A stretch of DNA of 64,000 bases from Candidatus Magasanikiibacteriota bacterium (GCA_041665025.1 JBAYJP010000001.1:110555-174554); one strand, 5' to 3'. Shown: positions 23,379-54,105, numbered from the stretch's first letter. Program-made: numbers and translations. Notes: generated by a model not told the origin, from the letters alone.

Positions 23379-24608
23379 TTACTTAAAATAATCTTTATTC
23401 TTCAACTCTCGCGGCAAATAATCCTGCTTTGCCTCTTCACCTTTGAAGTCTGGTGTATATTTATAATCTTTACCATACCCAATATCTTTCATAAACCTCG
23501 TCGGTGCATTGCGTAAATGTAATGGGACACCCAAATGAGATGTAGCTTTTGCATCTTCTGCAGCTTTTTGATATGCCGTATACAACAAATTAGATTTCTT
23601 CGACTTGGCGCAATATACCACAGCTTGCGCGAGATGAACAGAGCATTCAGGCATCCCAATCTTATGGCAGGCATCATACGCGGCATTTGCCTGTATCATA
23701 GCTTCACTATTTGCCATACCAATATCTTCACTCGCAAAACGAAGTACCCGACGAGCAACATACAAGGGATCCGCTCCGCCCTCAAGCATCCGTGCGAGCC
23801 AATACAATGCCGCGTTTGCATCTGACCCTCTCATTGATTTGTGCAAAGCTGAAATAAGATTATAAAATTCTTCTCCTTTTTTATCAAATATCAGATGGGT
23901 TCGTTGCAGGGCTTCTTTGACATCCTCTTTGTTTATTTCAATCTTGTTCCCTGCTCCCTCCTTATTCCCTGTTTTAAACGCTAATTCTATCCCATTCAAC
24001 GCCACTCTCGCATCTCCTCCAGCTAATTCTGACAAAAATTCAATAGTCTCTTTCTCAATCTTCACTTCATATTCGCCCAGTCCCCTTTCTTTATCTTGAA
24101 GAGCTTGTTGTATTATTTTTACAATATCATGTTCTTCTAATCTTTTTAAAATAAATACTCGAGAACGTGATAACAATGGTCCAATAATTTCAAACGAAGG
24201 ATTTTCTGTTGTCGCACCGATTAATACAATTCTACCCTTCTCAACATATGGCAACAAGGCGTCTTGTTGTGCTTTATTCCACCTATGAATTTCATCTATA
24301 AACAAAATCGTACGCTTTTGTTCGTACTTCACACGTTCTTCTGCCCGTTTTATGACCTTTCTCAAGTCATCTTTACCACTTTCAACACCACTCAAAATTT
24401 CAAAATACGACTCAGTTTGCTGCGCAATTAAATTCGCCAAACTTGTCTTGCCAACACCCGGGGGACCCCAGAGCATTATAGAAGAAAGTTCATCATGCTC
24501 AATGAGCTTACGCAACAACTTGCCTTTGCCCACAATTTCCTGTTGCCCTACAAATTCATCAAAATTACGCGGGCGCATGCGGTCTGCCAATGGTTGCTGT
24601 TTTTCCAT
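23379..24608 (-). CDS. rarA: replication-associated recombination protein A (AAA+ ATPase RarA/MgsA)
   Basis: Collinear RarA architecture with GPPGVGKTSLANLIA and a FIDEIHRWNK Walker B. It carries an in-frame family H repeat (TGNKEGAGNK). Confidence 0.9.
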   Translation of the reverse strand: MEKQQPLADRMRPRNFDEFVGQQEIVGKGKLLRKLIEHDELSSIMLWGPPGVGKTSLANLIAQQTESYFEILSGVESGKDDLRKVIKRAEERVKYEQKRTILFIDEIHRWNKAQQDALLPYVEKGRIVLIGATTENPSFEIIGPLLSRSRVFILKRLEEHDIVKIIQQALQDKERGLGEYEVKIEKETIEFLSELAGGDARVALNGIELAFKTGNKEGAGNKIEINKEDVKEALQRTHLIFDKKGEEFYNLISALHKSMRGSDANAALYWLARMLEGGADPLYVARRVLRFASEDIGMANSEAMIQANAAYDACHKIGMPECSVHLAQAVVYCAKSKKSNLLYTAYQKAAEDAKATSHLGVPLHLRNAPTRFMKDIGYGKDYKYTPDFKGEEAKQDYLPRELKNKDYFK

Positions 24609-24616
24609 ATATACTA

Positions 24617-25714
24617 TTAGTCAGAATCTTTGAACCACAATTTATATAATCTAAACGCCACTCGTTCAAACATACGCGTAAAAAAACTACGCTCTTTCCA
24701 TTTGACTTCTTCGAGAGTATAGGAATTATCCATCCAACGCTTCAATATGCGTTGAAGCTTGCCCACAATTTTTTTATCATGAGTTTTTATATTTACTTCA
24801 TAATTATGGTAAAAACTTGTGAATTCAATATTACTGCTTCCTATCATCGCCCAATCATCATCAACCACAATACCTTTACCATGGGACATCTTTTTTAATA
24901 AATGTATGCGTACACCTAATTTTTCTATAATCGAAAACCACGCATGCGCGGCATATTGCATAAACCGTAAATCACCGCGATATGGGATAAGCAGATCAAC
25001 TTTTACCCCACGTTTGCGCGCCTGCCACAAGGCATGAACAAATTCTTTTCCTGGGAAATAGTAGGGGGAAAATAGAATAATGCGTTCACGGGCTTTCATA
25101 AAGGCCTCTATATAACGCTCACGGACCCGAGAATATTTTTTTTCTGTTGGTTTATCATACACAAAATCCAACAATGCATGTTTCACACGATGTCTATACC
25201 TTAGCAGATGTTCAACTGACGCACGCTCACCTCCAGACTGAATATATAATTTCGCAAAAGATCGTAAAAGCGACCGTACAATTTTCCCGCGCAATTGCAT
25301 ATGAATATCATTCCAATCTTTCATATGATGCTGGACATTCACGCCCCCAACAAAACCAATCTGCCCATCAACAACCAAAATTTTACGATGCGTACCGCCC
25401 ATAAGCCATTGCCGTACTCCATAAAAAGGATGTTTAAACGGCCTAAATATGCGTATATCCACATGAGACTGTGCAAGTTGAGCAATCATTTTCCGTGATA
25501 GACTAAAACTTCCCCAATAATCTAGTACGATTTTCACATCCACGCCTTGCAATGCTTTCTGTTTGAGTAAATCAAAAAATGGCGTACCAGAAGAGTCATC
25601 AACCAATACAAAAACTTCCCAATAAATTGAACTCTGAGCATGCGCAATAGCTTCATACATCGCCTGCCATGCTTGCGATGTCGTATCATATATATTGTAT
25701 GCGGATGTCTTCAT
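24617..25714 (-). CDS. phospholipase D-family protein (cardiolipin synthase-like, two HKD motifs)
   Basis: HRKILVVDGQIGFVGGVNV and HGKGIVVDDDWAMIGSSNIE. Confidence 0.75.
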   Translation of the reverse strand: MKTSAYNIYDTTSQAWQAMYEAIAHAQSSIYWEVFVLVDDSSGTPFFDLLKQKALQGVDVKIVLDYWGSFSLSRKMIAQLAQSHVDIRIFRPFKHPFYGVRQWLMGGTHRKILVVDGQIGFVGGVNVQHHMKDWNDIHMQLRGKIVRSLLRSFAKLYIQSGGERASVEHLLRYRHRVKHALLDFVYDKPTEKKYSRVRERYIEAFMKARERIILFSPYYFPGKEFVHALWQARKRGVKVDLLIPYRGDLRFMQYAAHAWFSIIEKLGVRIHLLKKMSHGKGIVVDDDWAMIGSSNIEFTSFYHNYEVNIKTHDKKIVGKLQRILKRWMDNSYTLEEVKWKERSFFTRMFERVAFRLYKLWFKDSD

Positions 25715-25848
25715 ACATTCTTAATGTACCATAAATAGAGTTTTTTTCAAGTATGGTATACATACTAGAAAAAATTCTTACCTTCAATCCTTTACAAGTC
25801 TCTCTCTATTAACTATAATTTCTGCAACCCGCATACCGCGGGCAGGAG

Positions 25849-26100
25849 GTGAAACCCACCATGAACGGGAGGTGGTGGGAACAATTCCCGTGGGAGGTGT
25901 TTTTCCTCTTCGCCATCCTGGCGGTTCCGTGTCTGGCGGATGCTTTTAGTTCGCCAAACCCCGCCGAGATGGTAAAACTCCCTCCGTTGTTCGTCGGCCT
26001 TGAGTGCTTGGCTGGCGGACTTCTCATATCGCTTCTGCATGTACGCGACGAACGCCGCGATAGAAAGAAGCGGTACCTGCAGCAGAGCCAGGGCTGCTAA
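25849..26100 (+). CDS. small hydrophobic protein on GC-rich mini-island A
   Basis: GGAGG SD 9-11 nt upstream of the ATG. About 60% GC in an AT-rich genome. Followed by the hairpin terminator aacgccc...gggcgttttttt (26130-26165). The opposite-strand ORF starts with GTG inside the terminator and is rejected. Confidence 0.45.
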   Translation: MKPTMNGRWWEQFPWEVFFLFAILAVPCLADAFSSPNPAEMVKLPPLFVGLECLAGGLLISLLHVRDERRDRKKRYLQQSQGC

Positions 26101-26215
26101 CTCCTCGAACCCTGGCTTGATTCCTAAATAAAACGCCCACACAAAAGTTGCGGGCGTTTTTTTATTTACTATAATAGCAAAAACTAGAAAACAGCTAATT
26201 TAAGTGCTCGAATGA

Positions 26216-27853
26216 TTAGTGTTTCAGCGCTACTTTTATAAATTCTCTAAACAGCGGATGTGGTCGCATGGGACGTGATTTGAACTCGGGATGAAATTGA
26301 CTGCCCACAAAAAAAGGATGATCTTTTAATTCTACAATTTCAACTAAATTTGATTCTGGATTCACACCAACTACATGCAGGCCTGCTTTTTCCATTTCAT
26401 CGCGATAATCATTATTGAACTCATATCTATGGCGATGGCGTTCTGAAATTTTTTCTATCCCATACGCTTTGCCAGCCTTAGTTCCTTTTTTTAGTACGCA
26501 ATCATATGCACCGAGACGCATGGTACCACCATACCTATTTTCGCGCACATTTTGCGCCTGATGAGGATTGATATGAATGACAGGATTTTTTGTATCTGGA
26601 CTAATTTCAACCGTATGCGCGTCTTTTTTCCCCAGCACATTTCTGACAAATTCAATGGTGGCCAACTGCATACCATAGCAAAGCCCCAAATAAGGCTTTT
26701 TGTGTTCGCGGGCAAACGTAACAGCTTTGATAATCCCTTCCACACCGCGCGACCCAAATCCTCCAGGGACAATAATACCATCATACCCCGCAAGCATAGA
26801 GACTTTTTTGGAATCCTTTTCAAACTCTTCTGAGTCAATCCAATCAAGTGCAGGCTTTACATGATGAAACCAGCTTGCGTGTTTTATCGCTTCAATAACT
26901 GAGATATACGAATCAGACAATGTGAACGTGCCGGTTCCAAAATATTTTCCCACAACAGCAATTTTAACCTCTTTGGTACTTGTTTTGATCGTATGGACAA
27001 ATGTATTCCACGGAGTTAAGTCTGTTTTGCGTGGTCGTGTATGGAGCACTTTGAGTACTTTATTTCCGATTTGCTGTTCTTCCAGGCGAATAGGAATTTC
27101 ATAAATTGAAGGCACATCTGGAGCTGAGATACAATTTTCTTTTCTGACCCCACAAAACACGGCAAGCTTTTCACGGCGAGGTTTGTCTAATTCAAAAGGC
27201 CCGCGTGCGACGATAATGTCTGCTTGAATTCCTGCTGTATTCAATGTGCGTGCCGCATGCTGTGTTGGTTTGGTCTTCATCTCACCCAAATGAGAAGGTA
27301 CAGGCATATAGCTCACAAGAATAAAAGCTACATCATCTGGACGATTCATCTTCATCATGCGAGCCGCTTCGAGAAAAAGTAAATTTTGATATTCACCAAG
27401 CGTACCACCAACTTCAATAATCGTGACATCAGCATTTTTCTTTTCAGCTGCGGCAGTAATTCTCCTAATCACTTCCTCGGGAATATGAGGTACAACCTCC
27501 ACACAACGTCCTTTGTATTTCATGGCACGTTCATTTTCAATGACTGTCAGGTATACACGTCCCGTCGTCATGTAATTTTCTGAATTCAAATCAGTATCCA
27601 AAAAACGCTCATAATTGCCCATGTCCTGGTCTGTCTCGTCTCCATCATTTGTCACAAAAACCTCTCCGTGCTCTACCGGATTCATGGTTCCTGCATCAAC
27701 ATTGATATACGGGTCAATTTTAAGCGCAGTAACACTAAATCCTTTTGCCTCAAGTATAGCTCCGAGAGAAGCAGACGTTACTCCTTTTCCAACTCCGCTC
27801 AAAACCCCTCCTACGACAAAGACGTATTTACGTTTTTTAGTTTTTGCTACCAT
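26216..27853 (-). CDS. pyrG: CTP synthase
   Basis: YVFVVGGVLSGVGKG at the N-terminus and a glutaminase domain with GLCYGMQ. The start is set at MVAKTKKRKY; the 15-aa upstream extension in the ORF track is unlikely to be translated. Confidence 0.95.
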   Translation of the reverse strand: MVAKTKKRKYVFVVGGVLSGVGKGVTSASLGAILEAKGFSVTALKIDPYINVDAGTMNPVEHGEVFVTNDGDETDQDMGNYERFLDTDLNSENYMTTGRVYLTVIENERAMKYKGRCVEVVPHIPEEVIRRITAAAEKKNADVTIIEVGGTLGEYQNLLFLEAARMMKMNRPDDVAFILVSYMPVPSHLGEMKTKPTQHAARTLNTAGIQADIIVARGPFELDKPRREKLAVFCGVRKENCISAPDVPSIYEIPIRLEEQQIGNKVLKVLHTRPRKTDLTPWNTFVHTIKTSTKEVKIAVVGKYFGTGTFTLSDSYISVIEAIKHASWFHHVKPALDWIDSEEFEKDSKKVSMLAGYDGIIVPGGFGSRGVEGIIKAVTFAREHKKPYLGLCYGMQLATIEFVRNVLGKKDAHTVEISPDTKNPVIHINPHQAQNVRENRYGGTMRLGAYDCVLKKGTKAGKAYGIEKISERHRHRYEFNNDYRDEMEKAGLHVVGVNPESNLVEIVELKDHPFFVGSQFHPEFKSRPMRPHPLFREFIKVALKH

Positions 27854-27939
27854 AACTAAAATTATTAAGAAACAAATTCCAGCAACAGTATACCACAAAC
27901 CAACATAAATAAAAATCCCTCCGGAGGTGGAGGGACTAT

Positions 27940-28386
27940 TTATTCTTCGTAGACACTGACGCGGAGCTCTGCCTCAAGCCCGTGATTGAACCGCACAACT
28001 GCTCGATGTTCTCCGAGTTCTTTAATTGAATGTGGAATAAAAATTTGGACAGGCTTTATTGCCACGCCATATTGTTTTTTTATTACTTCAACAAGTTTAG
28101 AACCATTTACGCTTGCATACAACTTTCCTTCGCTATTTATTTTACCAAAAACCTCTAGTTCAGCCCCATCGAGCTTACCAGCAGTTTTCTGCTGTTCTTT
28201 GAGCTCTTGCTCAGCCAGCTTTGTCTTCTTTTTTTCCTGAGCCTCAAGCTGAACTACCACATCAGTCGTCATAATTTTGGCCAATTTTTTTGCCAATAAA
28301 AAATTTCGAGCATATCCTTCTGCTACTTCTTTTATATCCCCCTTTTTGCCTGTTCCCGATACATCTTGTAAAAGTATTACTTTCAT
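27940..28386 (-). CDS. rplI: 50S ribosomal protein L9
   Basis: [30 protein letters not shown] is a classic L9 N-domain. A hairpin terminator lies at about 27912-27945. Confidence 0.9.
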
Positions 28387-28518
28387 ACTCTATATATAAT
28401 AGAACAACCTTGAATTTTACGCAAGTACATGGTATTATCTCACTATTAGGCAAGGAAACCAGATACTAGAATGTGAAAGTCTATTCCGGTTTCCAGTTTC
28501 TTAATCCAATATCCCACT

Positions 28519-29367
28519 ATGAAATCTGGTTTTGCAATACTCGTAGGACGTTCAAATGTCGGAAAATCTACTCTTCTCAATACCCTGGTAGGAACCAAAA
28601 TTGCTGCCACGTCTTTTCGCGCACAAATGACGCGAGATATTATTCACGGTGTTGTCAACATGCCCGAAGGCCAGATTGTGTTTATGGACACACCCGGAAT
28701 ACTGAAAGAAAAACACAGTAGTCTGACAGGAAAATTGATTGAAAAAGCAAAAGATGCTCTTCAAGGTGTGGACGTTATCTTGTATGTAGTAGACCCAAGT
28801 CGTGAAATTGGAGATGAAGAAAAATTTACCTATGGTCTTATTCGCCATATTGAAGTACCAAAAATTTTGGTAATAAATAAAAGTGATTTGTCTCAATCTG
28901 AACGCAGACATCAGCAAGAATATGAACGATGGGGTTCTGATTTTAATGCCGTGTTTGCACTTTCTGCCCTTCGCGCAAGCCATATCCAACCACTCAAAGA
29001 AAAAGTTCTTGAACTTCTACCAGAAGGACAGCCTATGTATGATGGTGCTCAGCTTACAAATGTCCACGAATATTTTTGGGTAGGAGAATTGATACGTGAA
29101 AAAATATTTTCAGTATTTGATAAAGAAGTCCCCTATTCTATGACAGTGGAAGTTCAGAGCATAGAAGAAAAAAAAGATATGTTCGTTATTACCGCGCACA
29201 TACTTACTAATCAGGAACGATACAAAAAATTAATTATTGGCAAAGGTGGAAGCAAAATAAAAGAAATTGGTGTGATGGCCCGACGTGAATTGGAACAATC
29301 ACTTAATAAAAAAGTGTTTTTGGAATTAGAAGTTGAAGTTGATGGACATTGGATTGAGAGGGTTTAA
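28519..29367 (+). CDS. era: GTPase Era
   Basis: G1 GRSNVGKST, G3 DTPG, G4 NKSD and a C-terminal KH domain. Confidence 0.9.
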   Translation: MKSGFAILVGRSNVGKSTLLNTLVGTKIAATSFRAQMTRDIIHGVVNMPEGQIVFMDTPGILKEKHSSLTGKLIEKAKDALQGVDVILYVVDPSREIGDEEKFTYGLIRHIEVPKILVINKSDLSQSERRHQQEYERWGSDFNAVFALSALRASHIQPLKEKVLELLPEGQPMYDGAQLTNVHEYFWVGELIREKIFSVFDKEVPYSMTVEVQSIEEKKDMFVITAHILTNQERYKKLIIGKGGSKIKEIGVMARRELEQSLNKKVFLELEVEVDGHWIERV

Positions 29368-29376
29368 TAACAATAT

Positions 29377-29895
29377 ATGCCCGAACTAATAACCGAAGTA
29401 GACAGAAGTGACGGTGAAATTGGTGCTCGCCCGAAGACAGATTTTTTTACCAACCACGAGCTCATTTGCCGTACATCCCACCTATATCTGTTCAATTCAA
29501 AACGGCAACTCCTCATGCAATTGCGTGCCAAAAATAGAAAAAATTACCCAAATCAATATGATGCATCAGTATCGGGGACCGTGCGTGCAGGAGAAACATA
29601 CAACCAAGCGCTTGAACGAGAGATGAAAGAAGAATTAGGTATTTGCATACCTGCAACTATGTTTATAAAAGGATTTTATGAAGATGACATACACCGTTCG
29701 CACAAAATGTGCTTCTGGGGTATGTATGATGGTCCGATAGAAATCCAAAAATCTGAAATCGCTCAAATACTGTGGATCGACAGAACTGAACTCAAGAAAA
29801 AAATGGCAGAAGAAAAAGATAAATTTTGCCCTCCATTTTTAGAGGAACTGCATGAGATAATCCAAAAAAATTATTTAATAGAAGTATTTACATAA
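29377..29895 (+). CDS. NUDIX hydrolase
   Basis: Nudix box GTVRAGETYNQALEREMKEELGI, followed by a strong hairpin terminator at 29896-29928. Confidence 0.7.
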   Translation: MPELITEVDRSDGEIGARPKTDFFTNHELICRTSHLYLFNSKRQLLMQLRAKNRKNYPNQYDASVSGTVRAGETYNQALEREMKEELGICIPATMFIKGFYEDDIHRSHKMCFWGMYDGPIEIQKSEIAQILWIDRTELKKKMAEEKDKFCPPFLEELHEIIQKNYLIEVFT

Positions 29896-29932
29896 ATTCC
29901 CCCGAGTGCCGAGGGAATTTTTATTTTGTTTA

Positions 29933-30283
29933 TTATGTTAGATTGAGCATTTCTTTTATCATTTCCACATCTCTTTTTATTTTTTCAATAAGCTCGCCTG
30001 TATTGTCAAATCGCTCCAATTCACTTACTTTTTGTTTCAAATCAACATCTATATGCTTGTCGTACAAATCTTCCCCTATATAATCGATTAAATATACCTC
30101 TACTTTCCAAGGCTGTTCTCGAATAGCGACAGCTGCTTTATACCTCGTGCGGTCAACAAAAGCAAAGCCGGCATACACGCCACTCCCCCATACCACATGT
30201 TGCTTTTTACAATCAATATTAGCAGTAGGATAACCATACTGTTTTCCTAGACCATCGCCATGTACGACTTTGCCTCCGAACAT
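29933..30283 (-). CDS. riboflavin kinase domain protein (RibF C-terminal-like, stand-alone)
   Basis: GKVVHGDGLGKQYGYPTANI matches the riboflavin kinase G.V..G...G..LG.PTAN motif. 116 aa with no FAD synthetase domain. Confidence 0.65.
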   Translation of the reverse strand: MFGGKVVHGDGLGKQYGYPTANIDCKKQHVVWGSGVYAGFAFVDRTRYKAAVAIREQPWKVEVYLIDYIGEDLYDKHIDVDLKQKVSELERFDNTGELIEKIKRDVEMIKEMLNLT

Positions 30284-30286
30284 ACG

Positions 30287-37854: not shown

Positions 37855-38276
37855 AACGAAAACTCTTGAGTTTTTTTCAATGCCGTAACAAGTAGTTCCT
37901 TTAGTTCCTTTAATGATAAACTGCTATAGTTATTCATACGGTCAACTAGCTCATCTAAATCTCTAATAAATTTCTGATATTTTTCTTGTTTGAGAGCCTC
38001 ATCAATCATGGGATATTGTCTATAATTTTTATCAGCGTCTAAAAATTTTTTTACCAAAACACCTCCATTGGTTTTTTCAATATCTCTTAGAGAAACCATC
38101 CAACCACTTTTCTCTCGTAACACCCCTACAACAAAATTAAATGCTGCGAGATCATTACGATAATCTTTGATAGCCCACGCTAAATCAAACCCTCTTTGCT
38201 CTTGTCTTCCATCGTCCACCATATGATTATATTTTAAATTATAGGTTATCTCCACCACTTCCTTATTTCCCTCCAT
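37851..38276 (-). CDS. hypothetical protein
   Basis: 141-aa ORF translationally coupled inside the GT2 gene string. Confidence 0.45.
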   Translation of the reverse strand: MEGNKEVVEITYNLKYNHMVDDGRQEQRGFDLAWAIKDYRNDLAAFNFVVGVLREKSGWMVSLRDIEKTNGGVLVKKFLDADKNYRQYPMIDEALKQEKYQKFIRDLDELVDRMNNYSSLSLKELKELLVTALKKTQEFSL

Positions 38277-39379
38277 CCGACTTTTCTCAAGCTTTTAATC
38301 TTTAATCTTTTAATCTTCAAATCTTTTCGGTTTTTCCATATCTCTGCCCAGCCTCTCAAAACCGCTCTATCAAACAACAAAAACCATACGAATTTCTTCA
38401 ATTCATACCATTTTATAAAGACCGCGTCAAGGAGCCAATTCTGCCAATATTCATTTTTATACAATGTCATGAGATGATTTTTGTAACTATGATACTTTAC
38501 CCACTCAGATTGTTTCTTCTTATTTTCTACGGCTGCACTGTCTCCCATCTCTTGTGGGCCAGCGGCAGAACGGTCATGATATGCGACCGTATCAAGTAAC
38601 ACGTACGATTTAAATCCTGCAGACTGTAATCGAAATGCTAAATCCACATCTTCTTTGTACGAATGATATGATTCATCTAAAAATGATCCGTCGCCAAACT
38701 TTACTGCTTCAATTGCAGCACGTCTATACAAGGGAAACGCCCCAGATACGCCAAACACTTCAAGCGCCGTTCCATCTCCGTTAAATCGTTCAGCACGATA
38801 CGACATCTTCATCTTTGGTTCAAGCACAGACCAATCTTTGCCTGTATATTTTTCTATTACCCGTCTGTTGCGGAATATTTTTAAACCCAAGGCATCAATA
38901 TTATTACTCAAGGAATCTTCAATTCTGCGTTCTGCGTTCTCAATTCTACATTTGCCAAAGTCCCATCTCATCAGCCGAGGGCTTACGACAGCAACGTCTT
39001 CATGAGTATCCATAAACTTCACCATTTTTTCCAAGCAATCGGGCATAAGATACATATCTTGGTTGAGCAACAAAACATATTCTCCTACTCCCTGATCCTT
39101 ATTCCCTGTTCCCCTAAATAACTGATTATGCCCCCCTGCAAATCCCTTATTCTCTTTATTTTCAATTAACTCCACTTCAACAGGAAAATTTTTCTTGTCC
39201 GCCGTAGCTTTAGCGAAGGTGGAAATCTCAGTCTTAATTTCTCGAAGTGTATCATCAGTTGATGCATTATCTAAGATTATCAGACGCCAATCTTTGAAAG
39301 TTTGTTTTCTTAGCGAATCAAAAAGATACGGGATATATTTTCCACCGTTCCAAGTTACTAAATGTACACTAAGTTTCAT
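38246..39379 (-). CDS. glycosyltransferase family 2
   Basis: LSVHLVTWNGGKYI...IILDNASTD. It contains an in-frame family H repeat (GTGNKDQGVGE) and a C-terminal family E repeat encoding KIKRLKIKS. Confidence 0.8.
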   Translation of the reverse strand: MKLSVHLVTWNGGKYIPYLFDSLRKQTFKDWRLIILDNASTDDTLREIKTEISTFAKATADKKNFPVEVELIENKENKGFAGGHNQLFRGTGNKDQGVGEYVLLLNQDMYLMPDCLEKMVKFMDTHEDVAVVSPRLMRWDFGKCRIENAERRIEDSLSNNIDALGLKIFRNRRVIEKYTGKDWSVLEPKMKMSYRAERFNGDGTALEVFGVSGAFPLYRRAAIEAVKFGDGSFLDESYHSYKEDVDLAFRLQSAGFKSYVLLDTVAYHDRSAAGPQEMGDSAAVENKKKQSEWVKYHSYKNHLMTLYKNEYWQNWLLDAVFIKWYELKKFVWFLLFDRAVLRGWAEIWKNRKDLKIKRLKIKSLRKVGWREIRKWWR

Positions 39380-39452
39380 AAGTTTTCTAAGTAACTAAGT
39401 TCACTAAGTAACAACTTAGAAAACTTAGCTAACTTAGCTACTTAGACAACTT
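39366..39452. repeat. palindromic intergenic repeat, family C (actaagt / acttagt words)
   Basis: cactaagtttcataagttttctaagtaactaagttcactaagtaacaacttagaaaacttagctaacttagctacttagacaactta. The second copy is at 59540-59640. Confidence 0.6.
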
Positions 39453-40289
39453 ATCGTTGACCCACGCCATAAAAATTCCAATCGGCCTAAGCAATGCAAT
39501 CCACATCCACTTCCACCACGGTTCCCACTTTTTAAAATATATCGACATTGACTTCGTAAACTGTTTTTGTTTCCACAATGTCGTTCTCTTCTTGAAACTC
39601 TGCCCCACATAGTCAACACAAGTGACAACAGGCGTATACATTACTTTCATACCTAACTTTTTTACCTCTCTACAAATATCCACATCTTCAAACCAAAAAA
39701 AATACCTAGGATCCCATGCCCATCCCAATTTTTCTACCACTTCCCGACGCATGAGCATAAAAGCTCCACGCACAGTATCAACTTCCTGTTCTTTTTCAGG
39801 ATCAAAATCTTTCATAAGATACGAATCTAATATCTTAGGGAAGATATGTGGCAATTTGAGAATAAGTGCAATTTGGTTTAAGACCGTTGGAAATCGACGC
39901 GGGCCAGCTTCAGGTTTAAAATTTCCTTGTGTATCAACTAGTTTACAACTTCCAATACCAACGTCTACATGTTCGTCCATCCACTTAACCATAATATCTA
40001 AACTCCCCTCTTGTACGCGCATATCGGGATTCAAAAAAAGGAGATAATGACCTTGTGCTATTTCAACGCCTGTATTATTTGCAGGCCCAAAACCTATGTT
40101 TGCGTTATTTTCAACAACCTTAACATTTGGAAATTCTTTTTTGATATAATCGACAGTGCCATCTTTTGAACCATTATCTGAAATAATTTCTTCACATATT
40201 ATTTCTTTACAACCCTTAAAAACCGAGTTTATTTGCTCGGTGATATTTTTTTTATTATTCCATGTAACAGTTATAATTGATAAGTTCAT
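39438..40289 (-). CDS. glycosyltransferase family 2
   Basis: LSIITVTWNN...IISDNGSKDGT, FEDVD. Confidence 0.8.
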   Translation of the reverse strand: MNLSIITVTWNNKKNITEQINSVFKGCKEIICEEIISDNGSKDGTVDYIKKEFPNVKVVENNANIGFGPANNTGVEIAQGHYLLFLNPDMRVQEGSLDIMVKWMDEHVDVGIGSCKLVDTQGNFKPEAGPRRFPTVLNQIALILKLPHIFPKILDSYLMKDFDPEKEQEVDTVRGAFMLMRREVVEKLGWAWDPRYFFWFEDVDICREVKKLGMKVMYTPVVTCVDYVGQSFKKRTTLWKQKQFTKSMSIYFKKWEPWWKWMWIALLRPIGIFMAWVNDKLSK

Positions 40290-45915: not shown

Positions 45916-45917
45916 AA

Positions 45918-46781: not shown

Positions 46782-46794
46782 ATCCTATTATGGG

Positions 46795-47199: not shown

Positions 47200-47212
47200 A
47201 TTAGTAAAATAA

Positions 47213-47279
47213 GTTCATAGCCAATAGCCAATAATTCATAGTCGTCAACCTATTGGCTATGAACTACTGGCTATGAACT
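47213..47279. repeat. palindromic intergenic repeat, family B (gttcatagccaatag ... ctattggctatgaac)
   Basis: Copies also at 52804-52887 and 58161-58234. Confidence 0.6.
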
Positions 47280-48889: not shown

Positions 48890-48957
48890 AATGCTTGACC
48901 GAAACTATATAAAATGATAGAACATGATAAACCTAAGGCCGTGGAAAGGAGGACACC

Positions 48958-49662
48958 ATGGCCAAGCGCGTGAGACGCGCTCGTAGTGTGACCGGTGTCC
49001 CCACCCGGCCACAAGACCCGCTTCACGAGTGGCTCGGTATCACCGGGCTACTCATGAAACACGAGGTGACCGCGAACACCGTTACGGTTGTTCGTGGAAT
49101 CCTCGTTCTGCCGGTGATCATACTGGCAGGATTCGGCTTCAGTGGGGCGGCGTTTATTCTCCACCTTGTGAGCTGGTGGGGCGACGCCGTGGATGGTTCG
49201 GTCGCGCGCGAACGGCAGCGATGCGGCTACGTCGATAATCGGGATTTAGGGGAGTATCTTGACCCGATGGTCGACAAGGCTGCATGGGTGGCAGAGGCAA
49301 TGTTTTTACCTTTCGCCGCCCAAGCTGAACTCCGTCCGACGTGGGTGGTGGTAATCGCTATCGCGGCGATGTGTGTGCTCGTCCTCATCGAGGTTGCACT
49401 CGGCATCGTCCGGTGGCAAGATTACCACGCTAACACCAAGCAGACTACAGATGCGCCCAAACTCAACCTTGGGGCGCGCTGGTCAGGCAAGGTGAAGATG
49501 GTGCTCGAGGTCGCAGGACTCTCGACACTAATCCTTACCTCGTCCGACGAGGCTACTTGGTGCGTCCACGTGTGGGCGTGGGCGCTCGCGGCTGCTATGC
49601 CACTCGCCTCGCTCAGCCTGCTCCAAAAGATCTGGAGCAGGAAGGCTATAGTGGCAAACTAA
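48958..49662 (+). CDS. CDP-alcohol phosphatidyltransferase family protein on GC-rich island C
   Basis: Catalytic motif DAVDGSVARERQRCGYVDNRDLGEYLDPMVD (D-G-x2-A-R...G...D...D). AAGGAGG SD 5 nt upstream. About 62% GC versus about 32% in the flanks. Confidence 0.7.
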   Translation: MAKRVRRARSVTGVPTRPQDPLHEWLGITGLLMKHEVTANTVTVVRGILVLPVIILAGFGFSGAAFILHLVSWWGDAVDGSVARERQRCGYVDNRDLGEYLDPMVDKAAWVAEAMFLPFAAQAELRPTWVVVIAIAAMCVLVLIEVALGIVRWQDYHANTKQTTDAPKLNLGARWSGKVKMVLEVAGLSTLILTSSDEATWCVHVWAWALAAAMPLASLSLLQKIWSRKAIVAN

Positions 49663-49795
49663 GGAGCTACGCCCCGCGGGATTGGAGGATCCCCGGGGCG
49701 ATTGCGTTTTATAACACAGATTGCACAGAATAAAAAGGAAACACGGATTACTATTTCGGTGTATTCCTTGTCATTCCGTGTAATCCGTGTTCTAT

Positions 49796-50440
49796 CTATA
49801 CACCATGTCTAAACAAACTCACAAGCGCAAACCCGACTGACAACCCCAAAATTCCACTTGCAAATCTCAAAAATACTTCATTATCAAATACGAGTGCGAT
49901 AAGGATGGCGCACACTGCTAAAACCTGCAAAAACATTTTTATCTTTCCCCACAAATTTGCCATACGTACGGTCTTGAACTTCACATGAGCAACATATGCA
50001 CTGGCAATAAATATTATTTCAATGCCAAGTACAGCGATTCCAAGCCAAAAATTTAAATACTTAAAAACTAACAACAGCACCATGGAACCAATCAAAAATT
50101 TGTCCGCGAGTGGATCAATAAGCATGCCAAATTTGGTTATTTTGTTTTGAGTGCGTGCGAGAGATCCATCAAGCGCGTCAGTAAATGCAACTACTAAAAA
50201 TAAACCAACCCCTGTCTTGTAGTATCCATAAAGTATGGTGAAAAATACTACAGGGGTTGCGATAATGCGAAATATACTTATTTTGTTTGGCGTAATAGCA
50301 GATGGAAGCAATTTTAAAAATGTGCGGGCCAAAAAATAATCATGGGGATGAACTTCCTCTGCTTTGAGATAGGTGAACAAATCGTGGTTACGTTCCTTGA
50401 ACCGTTTGATAAAATTCATATTTTTCGCTAAACTATACAT
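49796..50440 (-). CDS. CDP-alcohol phosphatidyltransferase family protein (native AT-rich copy)
   Basis: AFTDALDGSLARTQNKITKFGMLIDPLADK motif and multiple TMs. Confidence 0.75.
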   Translation of the reverse strand: MYSLAKNMNFIKRFKERNHDLFTYLKAEEVHPHDYFLARTFLKLLPSAITPNKISIFRIIATPVVFFTILYGYYKTGVGLFLVVAFTDALDGSLARTQNKITKFGMLIDPLADKFLIGSMVLLLVFKYLNFWLGIAVLGIEIIFIASAYVAHVKFKTVRMANLWGKIKMFLQVLAVCAILIALVFDNEVFLRFASGILGLSVGFALVSLFRHGV

Positions 50441-50551
50441 ATCTTACCTAAGATTGGGGAAAAAATCAATAACGAATCAACATAAAGTTGCACTTTGTGA
50501 GGGGCTAAAGTATACATAATTAGTCTAGACGCATGAGTGGTACGCCCCCTT

Positions 50552-50595
50552 GAAACAGGGTTTTGGCCCGCCGCGGCGGGCCAAAACCCTGTTTC
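50552..50595. repeat. perfect 44-bp palindrome gaaacagggttttggcccgccg|cggcgggccaaaaccctgtttc
   Basis: Exact 22+22 inverted repeat with a GC-rich core, in the divergent intergenic region between 49796..50440(-) and the membrane protein (+). Confidence 0.7.
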
Positions 50596-50667
50596 ATAAA
50601 TCCGAGCCTAAAGATAGTTCCATATCACCATGCATACACGAGGATTTATTCCACGGACTACAAAAAT

Positions 50668-52803
50668 ATGAATATACAGAAAAATAAAATTATTTCTTTA
50701 ACCATTTTCGGAATTATTTTGTGCATACTCAATATTTTTGTAGTGCACAGTGTTGTGATAGGCATAATAGGAATAGCATTGTACGCAACACAGCTTAGTA
50801 AATGGATAGGACATCTTGCTTTTACGAAATACGAAAGATTTGGAAAAAAATTATTTGGTTTTGTCATTCTCACGGGAATCATAATGACACTCAATGTACT
50901 TGTATATTACCCATACAAATTAACCACACTCACCACCATTATAATCCTATTAATCCCCTGTTTTCTCTTTTTTATAAAATCAAATCAGGAGAAGAGCACA
51001 AATGACAGTCCATGGGTCATGGAACGTTCACACGCCATGCAAACACTATTGTTTGTGGCTATAGATATAGCTCTTATTTATATTCTCACACAAAACAGCA
51101 CAACTGATGTTCTGCCATCTCCATGGATGAATATCAAACCCTGGTTTTTTATTTTATACGCAATCGCGACCGTAATATTACTCCATACCGTATCTGTCTC
51201 GCGACATGTTGGTAAAAGTATTGCACTTATTTCACTACATTTGTTTGTTACGTATAGCGTCGCATCGATTATCTATACACTTGGTTATGGATTTGATGGT
51301 TTTATCCATCGTGCCACAGAAACCTGGATTTTAAACAATGGGTTTATTACACCAAAACAACCATTTTATATTGGACAATACGGGCTCGTAGTGTGGCTTT
51401 CGCAGATCACACATATTTCAATTAAGATACTCGATATATATCTCGTGCCAGTCTTAACATCTCTCACACTTCCATTTTTTGTATATCACGCATTGCGATA
51501 CACGTGGAATATAGCGCAAGGCATTGCATTAAATCTTACATGGCTTTTGCCCTTTTTATTTTTCTTATCTTTTTATTTTACCACGCCACACAATTTAGCC
51601 TTACTATTTTTTATACTCGCCGTATTTGCAACAATTTCGTATGCAAAAGAAAAAATGCCATTCATTGTCCCTGGTGTTCTCTGTATAATGGCATCAATAA
51701 CACACCCACTTATTGGAGCACCGCTCTGTGTTTTTGTCTTTATTGCATTTGTTATACGAAAAATAAAAAACAAGTCTATTTCAGTTGTACTATCTATTTT
51801 TAATGGGATATCTATTGCGCTTGTACCGATTATTTTATTTACTCTGTTTCTTTTTATACATCATAATCCCCTTCCGAGCATTCAAAATCCTTTTACATTT
51901 GAACAAGTCCAGAGATTTACAGAATTAGTTGCACGTCCACATTGGTACATTGCACATGCGCCCATTATATTTGAATTACTTTACCTATGGCATGACGCTA
52001 TAATTCCGCTGGTAGTTATTATCGGCCTTGTTGGATTTTTTATAAAAAAAGAAAAGACATACATAGATTATCTCCTTATTTCTTCCTCACTTGGTTCTTT
52101 TATTGGCGCATGGTTATTGCGTACATGGGTTGTACTGCCCAATTTACTTGAAGAAGAACAAGCATCCTACCCTTTGCGCCTTTTGAGCATGGGGCTTCTT
52201 TTCCTCATGCCATTTTCAATGTATGGGCTATACGCCTTAGGCACGTGGTTTATGGAGAAAATAAAAAAATCCCGCAGCGAGCGGGATCCCGCTGTAGCGG
52301 GACAGCACATAGTAAAAGCATTATATATTCTTGGAGCAAGCGCACTTTTGATGGTTTCATTTTATTTTTCATATCCACAGCGCAATCCAAAAGTTTGGTT
52401 TCCCGGATTTAATGTTTCTCAAGCTGACTTTAGTGCCGTGGAGTGGATTCGCAATCAACATACTGATTATAATTATGTCGTGCTTTCAAATCCTATTACT
52501 GCCATGGCTGCTCTCACCAATTATAATTTTGTAAAACATTTCCAAACGCAAGAGCAAGGCGAATTATTTTATTATTCAATCCCAAGCGGTGGATATTTGT
52601 ACCGCATGTATTTGAACATGCTGTATGAAGTTCCCAAAGAACAATTTGTAGACGAAGTTAAAAAAACAACAGGGGTTGACACGGTTTATTTTGTGGTAAA
52701 TTCATATTGGGGAAGTTTCAAAAAAATTGTGGAAGAGCACAAAAAAACTGCCAAATCATGGCAGTCGATTGATGACGGAAAAGTGATGATATTTACTTAC
52801 TAA
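50668..52803 (+). CDS. large polytopic membrane protein (GT-C/O-antigen polymerase-like candidate)
   Basis: The start is placed at MNIQKNK because the upstream extension covers the palindrome. About 15 TMs, then a C-terminal soluble domain. Confidence 0.5.
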   Translation: MNIQKNKIISLTIFGIILCILNIFVVHSVVIGIIGIALYATQLSKWIGHLAFTKYERFGKKLFGFVILTGIIMTLNVLVYYPYKLTTLTTIIILLIPCFLFFIKSNQEKSTNDSPWVMERSHAMQTLLFVAIDIALIYILTQNSTTDVLPSPWMNIKPWFFILYAIATVILLHTVSVSRHVGKSIALISLHLFVTYSVASIIYTLGYGFDGFIHRATETWILNNGFITPKQPFYIGQYGLVVWLSQITHISIKILDIYLVPVLTSLTLPFFVYHALRYTWNIAQGIALNLTWLLPFLFFLSFYFTTPHNLALLFFILAVFATISYAKEKMPFIVPGVLCIMASITHPLIGAPLCVFVFIAFVIRKIKNKSISVVLSIFNGISIALVPIILFTLFLFIHHNPLPSIQNPFTFEQVQRFTELVARPHWYIAHAPIIFELLYLWHDAIIPLVVIIGLVGFFIKKEKTYIDYLLISSSLGSFIGAWLLRTWVVLPNLLEEEQASYPLRLLSMGLLFLMPFSMYGLYALGTWFMEKIKKSRSERDPAVAGQHIVKALYILGASALLMVSFYFSYPQRNPKVWFPGFNVSQADFSAVEWIRNQHTDYNYVVLSNPITAMAALTNYNFVKHFQTQEQGELFYYSIPSGGYLYRMYLNMLYEVPKEQFVDEVKKTTGVDTVYFVVNSYWGSFKKIVEEHKKTAKSWQSIDDGKVMIFTY

Positions 52804-52887
52804 GCCAATAGCCAATAGTTCGTAGCCAATAAATATCGCCCAAAACTCTATTGGCAATTGGCTATTGGCTCTGAACTATTGGCTATA
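52804..52887. repeat. family B palindromic intergenic element
   Basis: aagccaatagccaatagttcgtagccaat...ctattggcaattggctattggctctgaactattggctat. Confidence 0.6.
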
Positions 52888-54105
52888 AAGACTTACAAGC
52901 TTTTCAATATATTTCTCCTGCGTCAGCCCAGACAACATCTGGGTTGTTTTATTACTCATGATATGCAAATCTTGCGGATGTTCTATAGCCCATTTCATTT
53001 TCTCTGCAAGAGACGCCACATTCCCCGCTTCAAATGTAATACCACTCTCCCCTTCTTCAATAAGTTCGGCAATACCCTCGATGCGGCTGGCAAGAACCGG
53101 AATATGAAAAAATAAACTTTCAAAAATCACGGTCGGAGAATTTTCATAACATAACGATGGCACAACGGTTACATTCATGCGAGAAAATAATTCTGGCAAT
53201 TTATCCCGTTCCACACGCCCATGTACCGTAATATGCACGTTACCTTTTGTTTTTTCAATGACTTCATCTAACTGTGAACCATTTCCCACAATATGCAAAT
53301 GAATTTGTTTTTGCATGTCCAACTGAATATTTTTAAATGCTTCTATAAGCAAAAAAATACCTTTATGCGTCTCTATTTGCCCAAGATACAAAAAATTAAA
53401 CAGATCATTTCCCTGTTTCCTGTTCCCTGTTCCCTGTTCCCTGCTCTCCAATGTAAAGTCAAACGTCAATGGATTTCTCACCACTACTGTCTTTGACAAC
53501 GGAAAAAATCCTCGCTTGGTATAAAAGTCTAACAAAAATTGCGAAGGAGAAATGACAACCTGTGGCGAACCCATGAGTTTTTTCATAACCCACGTATATA
53601 TTTTTGTAGGAAACCCAGTATAACGCCATGAATGTTCCCTGTCTTTCAAAATCATCGCACTTGGTTCTACCAATTGCACGTCATGCACGGTATGGATATG
53701 ACGCAAACCAAGTTTGCGAATGACAGATGGAATAAAAAATGATAGGCCAATAAGATTATGCGTATGCACAATATCTGGTTTTTCTTTTTCCAAAATATTT
53801 TTTACCCAGCTGGCCGTAGAAAAATTAAAAATATCGCATACATGCCATATAAAACGTACCATACCGCTATGTTTGTGCGCGTCAGTATAAAAATACACAT
53901 TCGGCGGCCTGCGACGATAAATGGTCGTGTGTTCGTGACGTTCACTAAAATCCCCTCGCGGGGCACTGGTAATAATGACCACATCGTGACCTTGGGCAAC
54001 CAAACCCTGCGCAGACTTAACTACAACCTGCTCAGCTCCGCCACGGTGATAAGGAGGATAGATGTTGTTGATGATGCACACTTTCATAGCTCTGTAATAA
54101 TACAA
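52876..54105 (-). CDS. glycosyltransferase family 4 (GT-B)
   Basis: MKVCIINNIYPPYHRGGAEQ and a C-terminal E-x7-E-like EGIAELIEEGESG. It contains an in-frame family H repeat (EQGTGNRKQGND). Confidence 0.8.
   Translation of the reverse strand: MYYYRAMKVCIINNIYPPYHRGGAEQVVVKSAQGLVAQGHDVVIITSAPRGDFSERHEHTTIYRRRPPNVYFYTDAHKHSGMVRFIWHVCDIFNFSTASWVKNILEKEKPDIVHTHNLIGLSFFIPSVIRKLGLRHIHTVHDVQLVEPSAMILKDREHSWRYTGFPTKIYTWVMKKLMGSPQVVISPSQFLLDFYTKRGFFPLSKTVVVRNPLTFDFTLESREQGTGNRKQGNDLFNFLYLGQIETHKGIFLLIEAFKNIQLDMQKQIHLHIVGNGSQLDEVIEKTKGNVHITVHGRVERDKLPELFSRMNVTVVPSLCYENSPTVIFESLFFHIPVLASRIEGIAELIEEGESGITFEAGNVASLAEKMKWAIEHPQDLHIMSNKTTQMLSGLTQEKYIEKLVSLYSQ

What the first reader, a model, noticed from the sequence alone, without database searches (positions are those of the whole stretch)
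23938..53450. Family H repeat (cagggaacaggga) in-frame in RarA, a GT2 and a GT4, encoding GTGNK/R
RarA (23938-23985: TGNKEGAGNK), the GT2 at 38246..39379 (39085-39125: GTGNKDQGVGE) and the GT4 (53405-53450: EQGTGNRKQGND) all contain the same nucleotide repeat, gga aca ggg aay arg, read in an identical frame. It gives a Gly/Asn/Lys-rich loop in three proteins with different folds. This is a second family of in-frame insertions, independent of family E.
Basis: seen in the sequence. Interest (0 to 1): 0.6.

Follow-up and report, generated by a model that had tools for sequence, protein, structure and literature searches.

The report
Seven-base repeats inside protein loops
Three (in fact four) unrelated genes of this Magasanikbacteria (CPR) genome carry short tandem arrays of the 7-base unit CAGGGAA in flexible protein loops. 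Related species carry 7-base arrays at the same loops, so this looks like a long-lived coding microsatellite and not a recently inserted mobile element.

Summary
RarA (23943-23972), a GT2 (39080-39115) and a GT4 (53407-53445), all on the minus strand, carry a purine-rich motif that is a tandem heptanucleotide array of unit CAGGGAA. It is clean in GT4 (5 copies) and decayed in GT2 and RarA. A fourth site lies in the DnaX linker (8129-8155). Codon-aware nulls and the use of rare codons show a nucleotide-level signal, not codon bias.

The "in-frame insertion family" reading is only partly right.
- The RarA loop is no longer than in E. coli MgsA or in orthologues.
- The GT2 long loop is shared by many Magasanikbacteria.
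- Orthologue DNA from other species shows period-7 arrays at the same three loops with other units (TAAGGAA, CGAGGAA, GGGGAAA x5, ACAGTRG).
- I found no ends, palindrome or intergenic copies that would indicate a mobile element.

Best explanation: slippage-type coding heptanucleotide microsatellites tolerated in disordered loops. A 7-nt array gives the same peptide in every frame, and T-free units give no stops and only hydrophilic residues (QGTGNRE).

Unexplained: why one unit recurs at four loci here, and why exact (CAGGGAA)3 is also found in at least 120 viral contigs, mostly in replication-initiator gene linkers.

Verdict: new variant of a known kind, moderate interest.

The parts
53407..53445 (-). 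GT4 heptanucleotide array. Coding strand: AGC AGG GAA CAG GGA ACA GGG AAC AGG AAA CAG GGA AAT. It has 3 perfect CAGGGAA units plus 2 imperfect ones and encodes SREQGTGNRKQGN.
   Evidence: TRF gives period 7, 5.0 copies, 92% matches. Sequence. Lag-7 autocorrelation is 0.62, z=7.2 against the rest of the gene. The segment lies in the pLDDT<50 coil 214-226 of the AF2 model.
52876..54087 (-). GT4 glycosyltransferase gene (GT-B fold). The array sits in the linker between the N- and C-terminal Rossmann domains.
   Evidence: Pfam Glyco_transf_4 22-212 and Glycos_transf_1 237-389. It is 100% identical to a Candidatus Magasanikbacteria protein on a 282,871-bp contig. In the orthologue alignment the linker is hypervariable and here about 6-7 aa longer than in most.
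39080..39115 (-). GT2 decayed heptamer array: AGGGGAA CAGGGAA TAAGGAT CAGGGAG TAGGAGA A, encoding RGTGNKDQGVGE.
   Evidence: Sequence. It matches (CAGGGAA)n at 17 of 21 and 24 of 35 positions. The loop is 17 aa against the canonical 11 aa. It is a coil with lowered pLDDT in the AF2 model.
38246..39379 (-). GT2 glycosyltransferase gene (GT-A fold). The array lies between the GFAGGHN motif and the LLLNQD strand.
   Evidence: Pfam Glycos_transf_2 covers residues 4-143 against profile positions 1-124, so about 16 residues are extra. Orthologue alignment A2.
23943..23972 (-). RarA decayed array: A CAGGGAA TAAGGAG (GGAG) CAGGGAA CAAG, encoding TGNKEGAGNK.
   Evidence: Sequence. Lag-7 is 0.51, z=3.4 against the rest of the gene. 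CAGGGAA occurs twice.
23379..24608 (-). RarA/MgsA AAA+ ATPase gene. The array lies in a hypervariable loop inside the Pfam AAA_assoc_2 region (residues 179-260).
   Evidence: Pfam AAA, AAA_assoc_2 and MgsA_C. Alignment to E. coli MgsA 3PVS shows a loop of equal length. Alignment of 120 orthologues.
8129..8155 (+). Fourth site: a 14-nt tandem duplication ACGACCAGGGAACG x1.9 containing CAGGGAAC twice. It lies in the linker after domain III of DnaX (7033..8613 +) and encodes DQGTTTREQ.
   Evidence: TRF gives period 14, 100% matches. Heptamer-phase score is 17 of 21. Codons. Pfam DNA_pol3_gamma3 ends at residue 362 and the next domain starts at 429.

Best explanation
These are coding heptanucleotide microsatellites: short tandem arrays of a 7-nt unit that arise and turn over locally in structurally permissive loops and linkers of otherwise conserved proteins.

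Shown:
- The arrays exist and are a nucleotide-level signal.
- They sit in coil or low-confidence segments.
- Orthologues in other Magasanikbacteria have period-7 arrays at the same three loops with lineage-specific units.
- This genome is packed with 7-10-nt tandem arrays in its intergenic spacers, and it also carries other non-triplet arrays inside genes.

Inferred:
- The arrays are made and homogenised by replication slippage or intra-array conversion.
- Selection removes every change that is not a net multiple of 3 nt.
- A 7-nt array reads through all three frames every 21 nt, so it gives the same 7-residue peptide whatever the frame.
- T-free units such as CAGGGAA can contain no stop codon on either strand and no codon with T at the second position. 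They therefore translate into Gly-rich hydrophilic coil (QGTGNRE).
- This filter, together with shared ancestry of the RarA and GT2 arrays across species, would account for the similar purine-rich units.

The protein effect is a change in loop length and sequence. No specific function of the peptide is implied.
For: - GT4: period 7, 5 copies.
- Nulls that preserve codon usage or the peptides are exceeded, and rare codons are used.
- Orthologue DNA, RarA: L001 CAAAGAA TAGGGAA CAGGGAT TAGGGGA; L009/L010 ATAAGGA AAAAGGA GTAAGGA (lag-7 0.61-0.77).
- Orthologue DNA, GT2: L003 GAAGGAA TAAGGAA TAAGGAA CAAGGAG; L005 AGGGGAA TGGGGAA CGAGGAA CGAGGAA; L008 TGGGGAA TGAGGAA AGTGGAA.
- Orthologue DNA, GT4: L007 has GGGGAAA x5 perfect; L309 has ACAGTRG x5; L006 has a decayed x6 array.
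- Four of six distinct long-linker GT4 orthologues have lag-7 z of at least 3.7, with unrelated units. That pattern fits local generation.
- In RarA, elevated lag-7 is confined to Magasanikbacteria (WIN plus 8 of 16 close-relative loci) and is absent in the roughly 20 more distant homologues whose loop could be extracted.
- The close pair L005/L008 differs by the same T-to-C change in successive units, which points to homogenisation within the array.
- Inside genes of the window, arrays of period 7 and 8 are enriched (3 and 3 loci against about 0.01 in nulls), while periods 6, 9 and 12 are not. Examples include TsaE (AAGATTN) and an Elp3-like radical-SAM protein.
- There are 37 TRF arrays in 7.2 kb of non-coding or gene-edge sequence, mostly of period 7 and 9.
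- The loops are coil or low pLDDT.
- GT2 loop lengths fall in classes of 11, 14 and 17 aa.
Against: - Purely local slippage amplifies whatever 7-mer is present, so it does not predict the same unit (CAGGGAA) at four unrelated loci of one genome. A second genome, UBA11710, likewise shares TAAGGAA between its RarA and GT2 arrays, although AT drift could produce that (GC 32.5% against 38.8%).
- One-unit slippage is a frameshift, so such arrays are a mutational burden in housekeeping genes (RarA, DnaX). Their persistence across species is not explained by neutrality alone.
- No copy-number polymorphism could be examined, because each window protein is a singleton cluster.
- Exact (CAGGGAA)3 is far more frequent in viral contigs than the control units. 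This hints that the particular unit is special.
Confidence: 0.55

Rival explanations
1. Dispersed family in the first reader's sense. A preformed (CAGGGAA)n segment is copied between loci, either by ectopic gene conversion or template switching between arrays, or by an unknown very small mobile element. It survives only in permissive loops.
For: - The same unit is present at four loci in one genome: GT4, GT2, RarA and DnaX.
- Consensus units agree within a genome and differ between genomes: WIN has CAGGGAA at RarA and GT2, while UBA11710 has TAAGGAA at RarA (L010) and GT2 (L003/L004).
- The GT4 array is young, with 3 perfect units, yet it uses the unit of the older decayed arrays.
Against: - Similarity does not extend beyond the purine tract, and segment lengths differ (27-39 nt).
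- There is no inverted repeat or target duplication, and no intergenic copy in 64 kb.
- The 15-nt exact match between RarA and GT2 is of a kind shared by about 110 locus pairs in the window.
- The between-genome unit differences (C to T, G to A) are what AT drift predicts.
- GT4 orthologues carry unrelated units at the same site.
Confidence: 0.2
2. The array is selected as a nucleic-acid element. Candidates are a periodic G-run motif (G3N4 repeats form the canonical G-quadruplex pattern when 4 or more units are present), SD-like purine tracts that pause ribosomes at domain boundaries, or binding sites (iteron-like) for a DNA-binding protein. The peptide would be a by-product.
For: - Exact (CAGGGAA)3 occurs in at least 120 IMG/VR contigs spanning GC 37-73%, against 4-15 for three control units.
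- At least 62 of 123 arrays lie in the linker of replication-initiation proteins (PHROG 2149/16167/1408). The related unit CAGGGAG occupies the same place. A cultured example is Streptomyces phage Austintatious gp39.
- From my own knowledge, the origin iterons of phage lambda lie inside the O gene linker.
- Several orthologue arrays contain AAGGAG.
- A selected function would explain why frameshift-prone arrays persist.
Against: - Units differ between orthologues, and G3 runs are lost in low-GC relatives (TAAGGAA, GTAAGGA). L309 and L006 have T-containing units. No single sequence or structure is therefore conserved.
- There is no homologue of the phage Rep N-domain in the window.
- No experiment or structure probing was possible.
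Confidence: 0.12
3. Phase-variable contingency loci. Gain or loss of one heptamer switches the gene off and on, for example to vary surface glycans through the GT2 and GT4.
For: - A non-triplet SSR inside glycosyltransferase genes is the classical architecture of phase variation (my knowledge).
- L007 has 5 perfect GGGGAAA units in the GT4 orthologue.
- The window GT4 has 25 nt of perfect repeat.
Against: - The same arrays occur in RarA and DnaX, which are unlikely switch genes.
- The arrays are short (3-5 units) and mostly imperfect.
- They lie mid-gene in linkers.
- Every orthologue recovered is in frame.
- No out-of-frame variants could be looked for.
Confidence: 0.08
4. Chance resemblance of Gly/Asn/Lys-rich loops that use the same preferred codons.
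For: - The L9 hit at 28347 lies inside the region matched by Pfam Ribosomal_L9_N, which suggests such matches can occur without any repeat.
- Short shared k-mers are common in the window.
Against: - The codons used are rare ones.
- Peptide-preserving synonymous resampling does not reach the observed counts.
- Period-7 structure cannot come from amino-acid periodicity.
- Orthologues show the same period.
Confidence: 0.03

Closest known systems
Four-heptamer tandem elements of Geobacter metallireducens (consensus GGACCGG, 49 copies; PMC2700814)
   Same: [quoted passage not shown] Both are unexplained.
   Different: The Geobacter elements were interpreted as regulatory RNA elements and include intergenic copies. 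Here all copies in the window are coding, there are only 4 loci in 64 kb, and orthologues in other species carry arrays with other units at the same sites.
Cyanobacterial STRR (short tandemly repeated repetitive) heptamers
   Same: Both are tandem heptanucleotide arrays abundant in a genome. STRRs are also known to sit inside tolerated parts of functional genes such as RNase P RNA (my knowledge; STRR is mentioned in PMC2858038).
   Different: The phylum differs (Patescibacteria). STRRs are mainly intergenic with a few genome-wide units. Here intergenic arrays each have their own unit, and the shared unit is the coding one.
Coding tandem repeats that create disordered protein regions (e.g. Borg elements, PMC9879509)
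   Same: Tandem nucleotide repeats arise de novo inside ORFs and add low-complexity or disordered segments.
   Different: As I recall it (the paper was listed but not read here), genic repeat units in Borgs are multiples of 3 nt. Here the unit is 7 nt, periods 6, 9 and 12 are not enriched, and the arrays are positionally conserved across species.
Rickettsia palindromic elements and cyanobacterial small dispersed repeats (in-frame mobile mini-elements)
   Same: The repeated nucleotide sequence is read through in frame in unrelated, conserved proteins, at surface loops.
   Different: Those elements have a defined full-length consensus with palindromic structure, and they show presence/absence polymorphism (my knowledge). 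The array here is a one-strand purine tract of variable length without ends.
SSR-mediated phase variation (contingency loci)
   Same: A non-triplet simple sequence repeat lies inside ORFs, including glycosyltransferases.
   Different: These arrays are short and imperfect, lie mid-gene in linkers of housekeeping genes, and no ON/OFF variants are known.

Membership tests
Tandem repeat / microsatellite in coding DNA | Head-to-tail copies of one short unit | tested here: met
   GT4 has period 7, 5.0 copies, 92% matches. GT2 and RarA are degenerate but heptamer-periodic.
Tandem repeat / microsatellite in coding DNA | Copy-number or length variation between related genomes at the same site | tested here: met
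   GT2 loop lengths fall in classes of 11, 14 and 17 aa. GT4 linker length varies and arrays with different units occupy the same site. Within-population variation was not testable.
Tandem repeat / microsatellite in coding DNA | Homogenisation of units within an array (concerted change) | tested here: inconclusive
   L005 against L008 shows the same T-to-C change in successive units. Perfect runs occur in WIN GT4 (x3) and L007 (x5). Only a few pairs were available.
Mobile in-frame mini-elements (RPE / SDR type) | Defined full-length consensus with conserved ends and inverted-repeat structure | tested here: not met
   Similarity is limited to the purine tract, lengths are 27-39 nt, and one strand is 85-100% purine so it cannot self-pair.
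Mobile in-frame mini-elements (RPE / SDR type) | Copies also in intergenic DNA | tested here: not met
   Of 16 CAGGGAA heptamers in the window, none forms an intergenic array. Only 64 kb of the genome was examined.
Mobile in-frame mini-elements (RPE / SDR type) | Clean presence/absence against orthologues (recent insertion) | tested here: not met
   The RarA loop is not longer than in orthologues or in 3PVS. The GT2 long form is shared across species.
Phase-variable contingency locus | Out-of-frame length variants co-existing in populations | not testable with these tools
   No read data are available, and the window proteins are singleton clusters.
Phase-variable contingency locus | Long perfect SSR in a gene whose loss is tolerated | tested here: inconclusive
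   The window GT4 has 3 perfect units and L007 has 5. The same arrays also occur in RarA and DnaX.
Cyanobacterial STRR | Heptamer tandem arrays in heterocystous cyanobacteria, mainly intergenic | tested here: not met
   The organism is Candidatus Magasanikbacteria, and these copies are coding.
Replication-origin iterons inside an initiator gene (lambda O type) | The array lies in the linker of a replication-initiator gene whose N-domain binds it | tested here: not met
   The window genes are RarA, GT2, GT4 and DnaX, and there is no homologue of the phage Rep N-domain. This feature does hold for the viral contigs.

The most novel reading that the evidence does not exclude
A sequence-biased, frame-agnostic process writes G-rich heptamer arrays of the CAGGGAR type into permissive linkers of genes, in CPR bacteria and in many phages, and the arrays act at the DNA or RNA level. 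The process could be templated addition, or copying between dispersed arrays. The function could be G-quadruplex or R-loop formation, or iteron-like protein binding. This would explain three things: the same unit at four loci here, genome-specific units across loci, persistence despite the frameshift risk, and the excess of exact (CAGGGAA)3 in replication-initiator gene linkers of at least 120 viral contigs.
Probability: 0.12. Interest if true: 0.8.

Novelty: new variant of a known kind. Interest (0 to 1): 0.5.

Why it matters
Tandem repeats inside genes are normally expected to have units that are multiples of three, or else to act as on/off switches. Here 7-nt arrays sit in housekeeping and glycosyltransferase genes of a CPR lineage, and the same loops carry 7-nt arrays in different species.

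This shows a route by which loop length and sequence can diversify. A 7-nt array gives one peptide in any frame, and T-free units are harmless in all six frames. It also points to an array-generating process in these small genomes that prefers 7-10-nt units, as seen in the intergenic spacers.

For annotation, such segments should not be taken for mobile insertions or assembly errors. The unexplained identity of the unit with arrays in phage replication-initiator genes is a lead worth testing.

Tried and rejected
1. Codon-bias or chance explanation. Rejected by codon usage and by two codon-aware nulls.

2. The 4th 11-mer locus at 28347. It lies in the L9 N-terminus inside the region matched by Pfam Ribosomal_L9_N. 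I set it aside as a chance match; L9 orthologues were not aligned.

3. The exact 15-mer shared by RarA and GT2 as evidence of copying. Rejected as evidence on its own, because about 110 locus pairs in the window share a 14-mer or longer.

4. Rfam and tRNA scan of the window. Only tRNA-Gln was found, and nothing at the sites.

5. Metagenome scan for GT4 relatives. It returned only 3 loci, and L090 duplicates L006.

6. Search for a phage-type Rep N-domain in the window. No hit.

7. Literature search for the motif or the peptide. Nothing relevant. Searches on tandem repeats in Patescibacteria found no description of this.

8. Slippery-site (X XXY YYZ) frameshift idea. Only L007's GGGAAAG fits. 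The window's GGGAACA does not, so I dropped it.

9. Internal start codon after SD-like tracts. No consistent in-frame start was seen, so I did not pursue it.

10. Genome-specific unit sharing as proof of inter-locus conversion. This could not be separated from AT drift with only two genomes.


Full report
**What is there.** The window comes from a Candidatus Magasanikbacteria (Patescibacteria/CPR) contig. The GT4 and GT2 proteins are 100% identical to proteins of a 282,871-bp contig.

On the coding strand the segments read as follows.
- RarA: ACA GGG AAT AAG GAG GGA GCA GGG AAC AAG.
- GT2: AGG GGA ACA GGG AAT AAG GAT CAG GGA GTA GGA GAA.
- GT4: AGC AGG GAA CAG GGA ACA GGG AAC AGG AAA CAG GGA AAT.

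TRF calls the GT4 site as period 7, 5.0 copies, 92% matches. GT2 reads AGGGGAA CAGGGAA TAAGGAT CAGGGAG TAGGAGA. RarA reads CAGGGAA TAAGGAG (GGAG) CAGGGAA.

A fourth coding site was missed. In DnaX (7033..8613 +; Pfam) the linker after domain III holds a perfect 14-nt duplication with CAGGGAAC twice, at 8129-8155.

**Is it more than chance?** Yes.
- The 11-mer with up to 1 mismatch hits 4 loci, against 0.46 expected.
- On coding strands, heptamer-phase matches to (CAGGGAA)n occur at 3-4 loci. Permuting codons gives 0.05-0.3. Resampling synonymous codons with the peptides held fixed gives 0.5-1.2. No null run of 300 reached the observed count at 21 nt with at least 17 matches.
- The sites are built from rare codons: GGG 16% of Gly, AAG 23%, AGG 8%, AAC 24%, CAG 32%. 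The nucleotide motif therefore drives the peptide and not the reverse.
- Of all 2340 heptamer necklaces, only AT-rich low-complexity units, two intergenic hairpin families and this unit reach three loci.

Three cautions apply.
- 'Identical frame' is automatic for a 7-nt array, which passes through all frames every 21 nt.
- The exact 15-mer shared by RarA and GT2 is unremarkable by itself.
- The L9 hit at 28347 lies inside the region matched by the Pfam Ribosomal_L9_N model, so I treat it as a chance match.

No intergenic array of this unit exists in the window.

**Are they insertions?** Only in part.
- GT4: the array lies in the hypervariable linker between the two Rossmann halves. The window protein is about 6-7 residues longer there than most of 29 orthologues. 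In the AF2 model residues 214-226 are coil with pLDDT below 50.
- GT2: the loop between GFAGGHN and LLLNQD is 11 aa in 59 of 105 orthologues, 14 aa in 11 and 17 aa in 18. The window has 17. The Pfam model also implies extra residues. The segment is coil with lowered confidence. The long form is not private to this genome, however. Other species have RGTGNEERGMSE, RGMGNEESGMSE, EGIRNKEQGENE and QGERNKEKGTSE at that place.
- RarA: there is no insertion. The loop has the same length as in E. coli MgsA (3PVS), apart from a one-residue gap, and as in 120 orthologues. The 88%-identical orthologue has SKNREQGLGDK there.

**The decisive evidence is orthologue DNA.** I fetched the genes of relatives. 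The same loops are heptamer-periodic in other species, with other units.
- RarA: L001 has CAAAGAA TAGGGAA CAGGGAT TAGGGGA. L009/L010 have ATAAGGA AAAAGGA GTAAGGA GTAAG.
- GT2: L003 has GAAGGAA TAAGGAA TAAGGAA CAAGGAG. L005 has AGGGGAA TGGGGAA CGAGGAA CGAGGAA. L008 has TGGGGAA TGAGGAA AGTGGAA.
- GT4: L007 has five perfect GGGGAAA. L309 has ACAGTRG x5. L006 has a decayed six-unit array.

Lag-7 autocorrelation of the GT4 linker, measured against the rest of each gene, gives z = 7.2 (window), 8.1, 4.7, 3.7, 1.9 and 0.1. In RarA, lag-7 is elevated (z about 2.2-5.6) in the window and in 8 of 16 close-relative loci. It is not elevated in any of the roughly 20 more distant CPR or other homologues whose loop could be extracted.

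So the arrays are either old and continually homogenised, or they arise repeatedly at the same permissive sites. Unrelated units at the GT4 linker favour local generation. The related NRRGGAA units at RarA and GT2 favour descent with turnover. The close pair L005/L008 differs by the same T-to-C change in successive units.

**Genomic background.** The genome is full of short tandem arrays. There are 37 TRF arrays in 7.2 kb of non-coding or gene-edge DNA, mostly of period 7 and 9, against 26 in 56.8 kb of coding DNA. Many intergenic arrays come as inverted pairs, so that the hairpin stems are themselves built of repeats.

Inside genes, arrays of period 7 and 8 are enriched (3 and 3 loci against about 0.01 in codon-permuted nulls). 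Periods 6, 9 and 12 are not enriched. Examples with other units are TsaE (AAGATTN, about 8 residues more than the Pfam profile span) and an Elp3-like radical-SAM protein. That protein reads straight through an inverted pair of period-8 arrays. Relatives show the same kind of thing.

**Mechanism, with what is shown and what is inferred.**

Shown:
- The arrays are nucleotide-level and lie in coil.
- They recur at the same positions across species.
- They are part of a genome-wide abundance of 7-10-nt arrays.

Inferred:
- Slippage or intra-array conversion creates and homogenises them.
- Only net 3n-nt states survive.
- A 7-nt array yields one peptide regardless of frame.
- T-free units cannot contain stop codons on either strand, nor codons with T at the second position. 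They therefore give Gly-rich hydrophilic coil (QGTGNRE).
- This filter biases surviving coding arrays towards purine-rich units.

I put 0.55 on this explanation.

It does not explain why one unit occupies four loci of this genome. It also does not explain why UBA11710 shares TAAGGAA between RarA (L010) and GT2 (L003/L004), although both differences from CAGGGAA are GC-to-AT changes in a 32.5% GC genome. Finally, it does not explain why frameshift-prone arrays persist in housekeeping genes.

The rivals are:
- copying between loci or a tiny mobile element (0.2);
- a nucleic-acid function (0.12);
- phase variation (0.08);
- chance (0.03).

**An unexpected lead.** GC of these contigs ranges from 37 to 73%. 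Control units are much rarer: 15 contigs for the composition-matched (GAGCAGA)3, 10 for (TAAGGAA)3 and 4 for (GGGGAAA)3. (CAGGGAG)3 gives 64.

At least 62 of 123 arrays lie on the sense strand in the inter-domain linker of replication-initiation proteins, which have an N-terminal 'RIRTIKPEFW' domain (PHROG 2149/16167/1408). They read ...PEQGTGNREQGTG.... The CAGGGAG arrays sit at the same place and read PEQGAGSREQG.

A cultured example is gp39 of Streptomyces phage Austintatious. By analogy with lambda O, whose origin iterons lie in the gene's linker (my knowledge), these may be iterons. Also, (CAGGGAA)n with 4 or more units is a canonical G3N4 quadruplex motif, which can be read directly from the sequence.

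The window has no homologue of that initiator, and the unit is not conserved among Magasanikbacteria orthologues. I therefore treat the identity of the unit as unexplained and not as evidence of a shared function.

**Comparison with known things.** The nearest precedent I found is the set of 49 four-heptamer elements (GGACCGG) within and between genes of Geobacter metallireducens (PMC2700814). Cyanobacterial STRR heptamers, tandem repeats that create disordered regions in Borg proteins (PMC9879509), Rickettsia RPE-type in-frame elements and SSR phase variation each share some features. Each fails on a defining one (see the membership table). No paper in the searchable library mentions this motif or peptide.

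**Verdict.** This is a new variant of a known kind (coding tandem repeats), with a non-triplet unit, positional persistence across species, and an unexplained recurrence of one unit. Interest is moderate.

Noticed in passing
window 2523-2577, 8633-8734, 14057-14132, 21485-21544, 23305-23365, 39367-39453, 47217-47279, 52803-52886, 54139-54231, 55152-55236, 58173-58235, 60113-60183: Most intergenic spacers hold pairs of short tandem arrays (period 7-10) that are reverse complements of each other, so the hairpin stems are themselves built of tandem repeats. Two units recur at three spacers each: TCAAAAN-type at 8630/54129/55147 and ATAGCCA at 47211/52803/58166.
   Followed up: partly
window 14057-14132 and 14781-14829, inside ORF 13521..15236 (+): An Elp3-like radical-SAM + GNAT ORF reads straight through an inverted pair of period-8 arrays, (TAAAAGAT)x4 and (CAATCTTT)x4, and through a second period-8 array (AGCACTTT). 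The Pfam radical-SAM match spans about 67 residues more than the profile.
   Followed up: partly
window 21757-21783, inside TsaE 21562..21996 (+): A period-7 array AAGATTN x3.9 lies inside the TsaE gene and encodes YKIEDSRFKIKRL. The protein spans about 8 residues more than the Pfam profile.
   Followed up: partly
window about 39190-39220 (GT2 residues about 55-64): The window GT2 has a private 10-residue insert, 'TFAKATADKK', absent from most of the 29 aligned orthologues.
   Followed up: no
RarA orthologues P0293, P0343, P0266, P0352, P0280, P0306, P0320, P0291, P0290, P0312, P0341 (same loop as window 23943-23972): Other Magasanikbacteria carry larger in-frame inserts in the same RarA loop, with a recurring 'F/Y-PPL..KG(E)GQGGV' theme and up to about 65 aa. 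This looks like read-through of a GC-rich palindromic element.
   Followed up: no
IMG/VR loci L093-L212 and L242-L305; phage locus L306 (NC_048153.1 25850-26728): (CAGGGAA)n and (CAGGGAG)n arrays of 3-14 units sit in the inter-domain linker of a widespread phage replication-initiation protein family, across GC 37-73%. They are far more frequent than control heptamer arrays and may be origin iterons or G4 motifs.
   Followed up: partly
window 9752-9990 and 12722-12744: tRNA-Gln (9752-9823) has a partial copy of its 3' part 150-180 nt downstream (9935-9989). A 23-nt palindromic terminator-like sequence, AAAATCCCCTCTTCGGGGATTTT, occurs at 9991 and again at 12722, bracketing the minus-strand genes 10036..12694. 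This may be an att-like duplication around an integrated segment.
   Followed up: no
window 20099, about 21537, 23294: A 17-19-nt sequence, TAGAACACGGATTGAACTA, recurs next to three intergenic tandem arrays. It appears to be a separate intergenic repeat family.
   Followed up: no
window 38292-38327 (GT2 C-terminus) and L003 3984: A period-8/15 array, AAGATTAAA, encodes the conserved Lys-rich tail KDLKIKRLKIK of the GT2. The same nucleotide periodicity appears in an orthologue.
   Followed up: no
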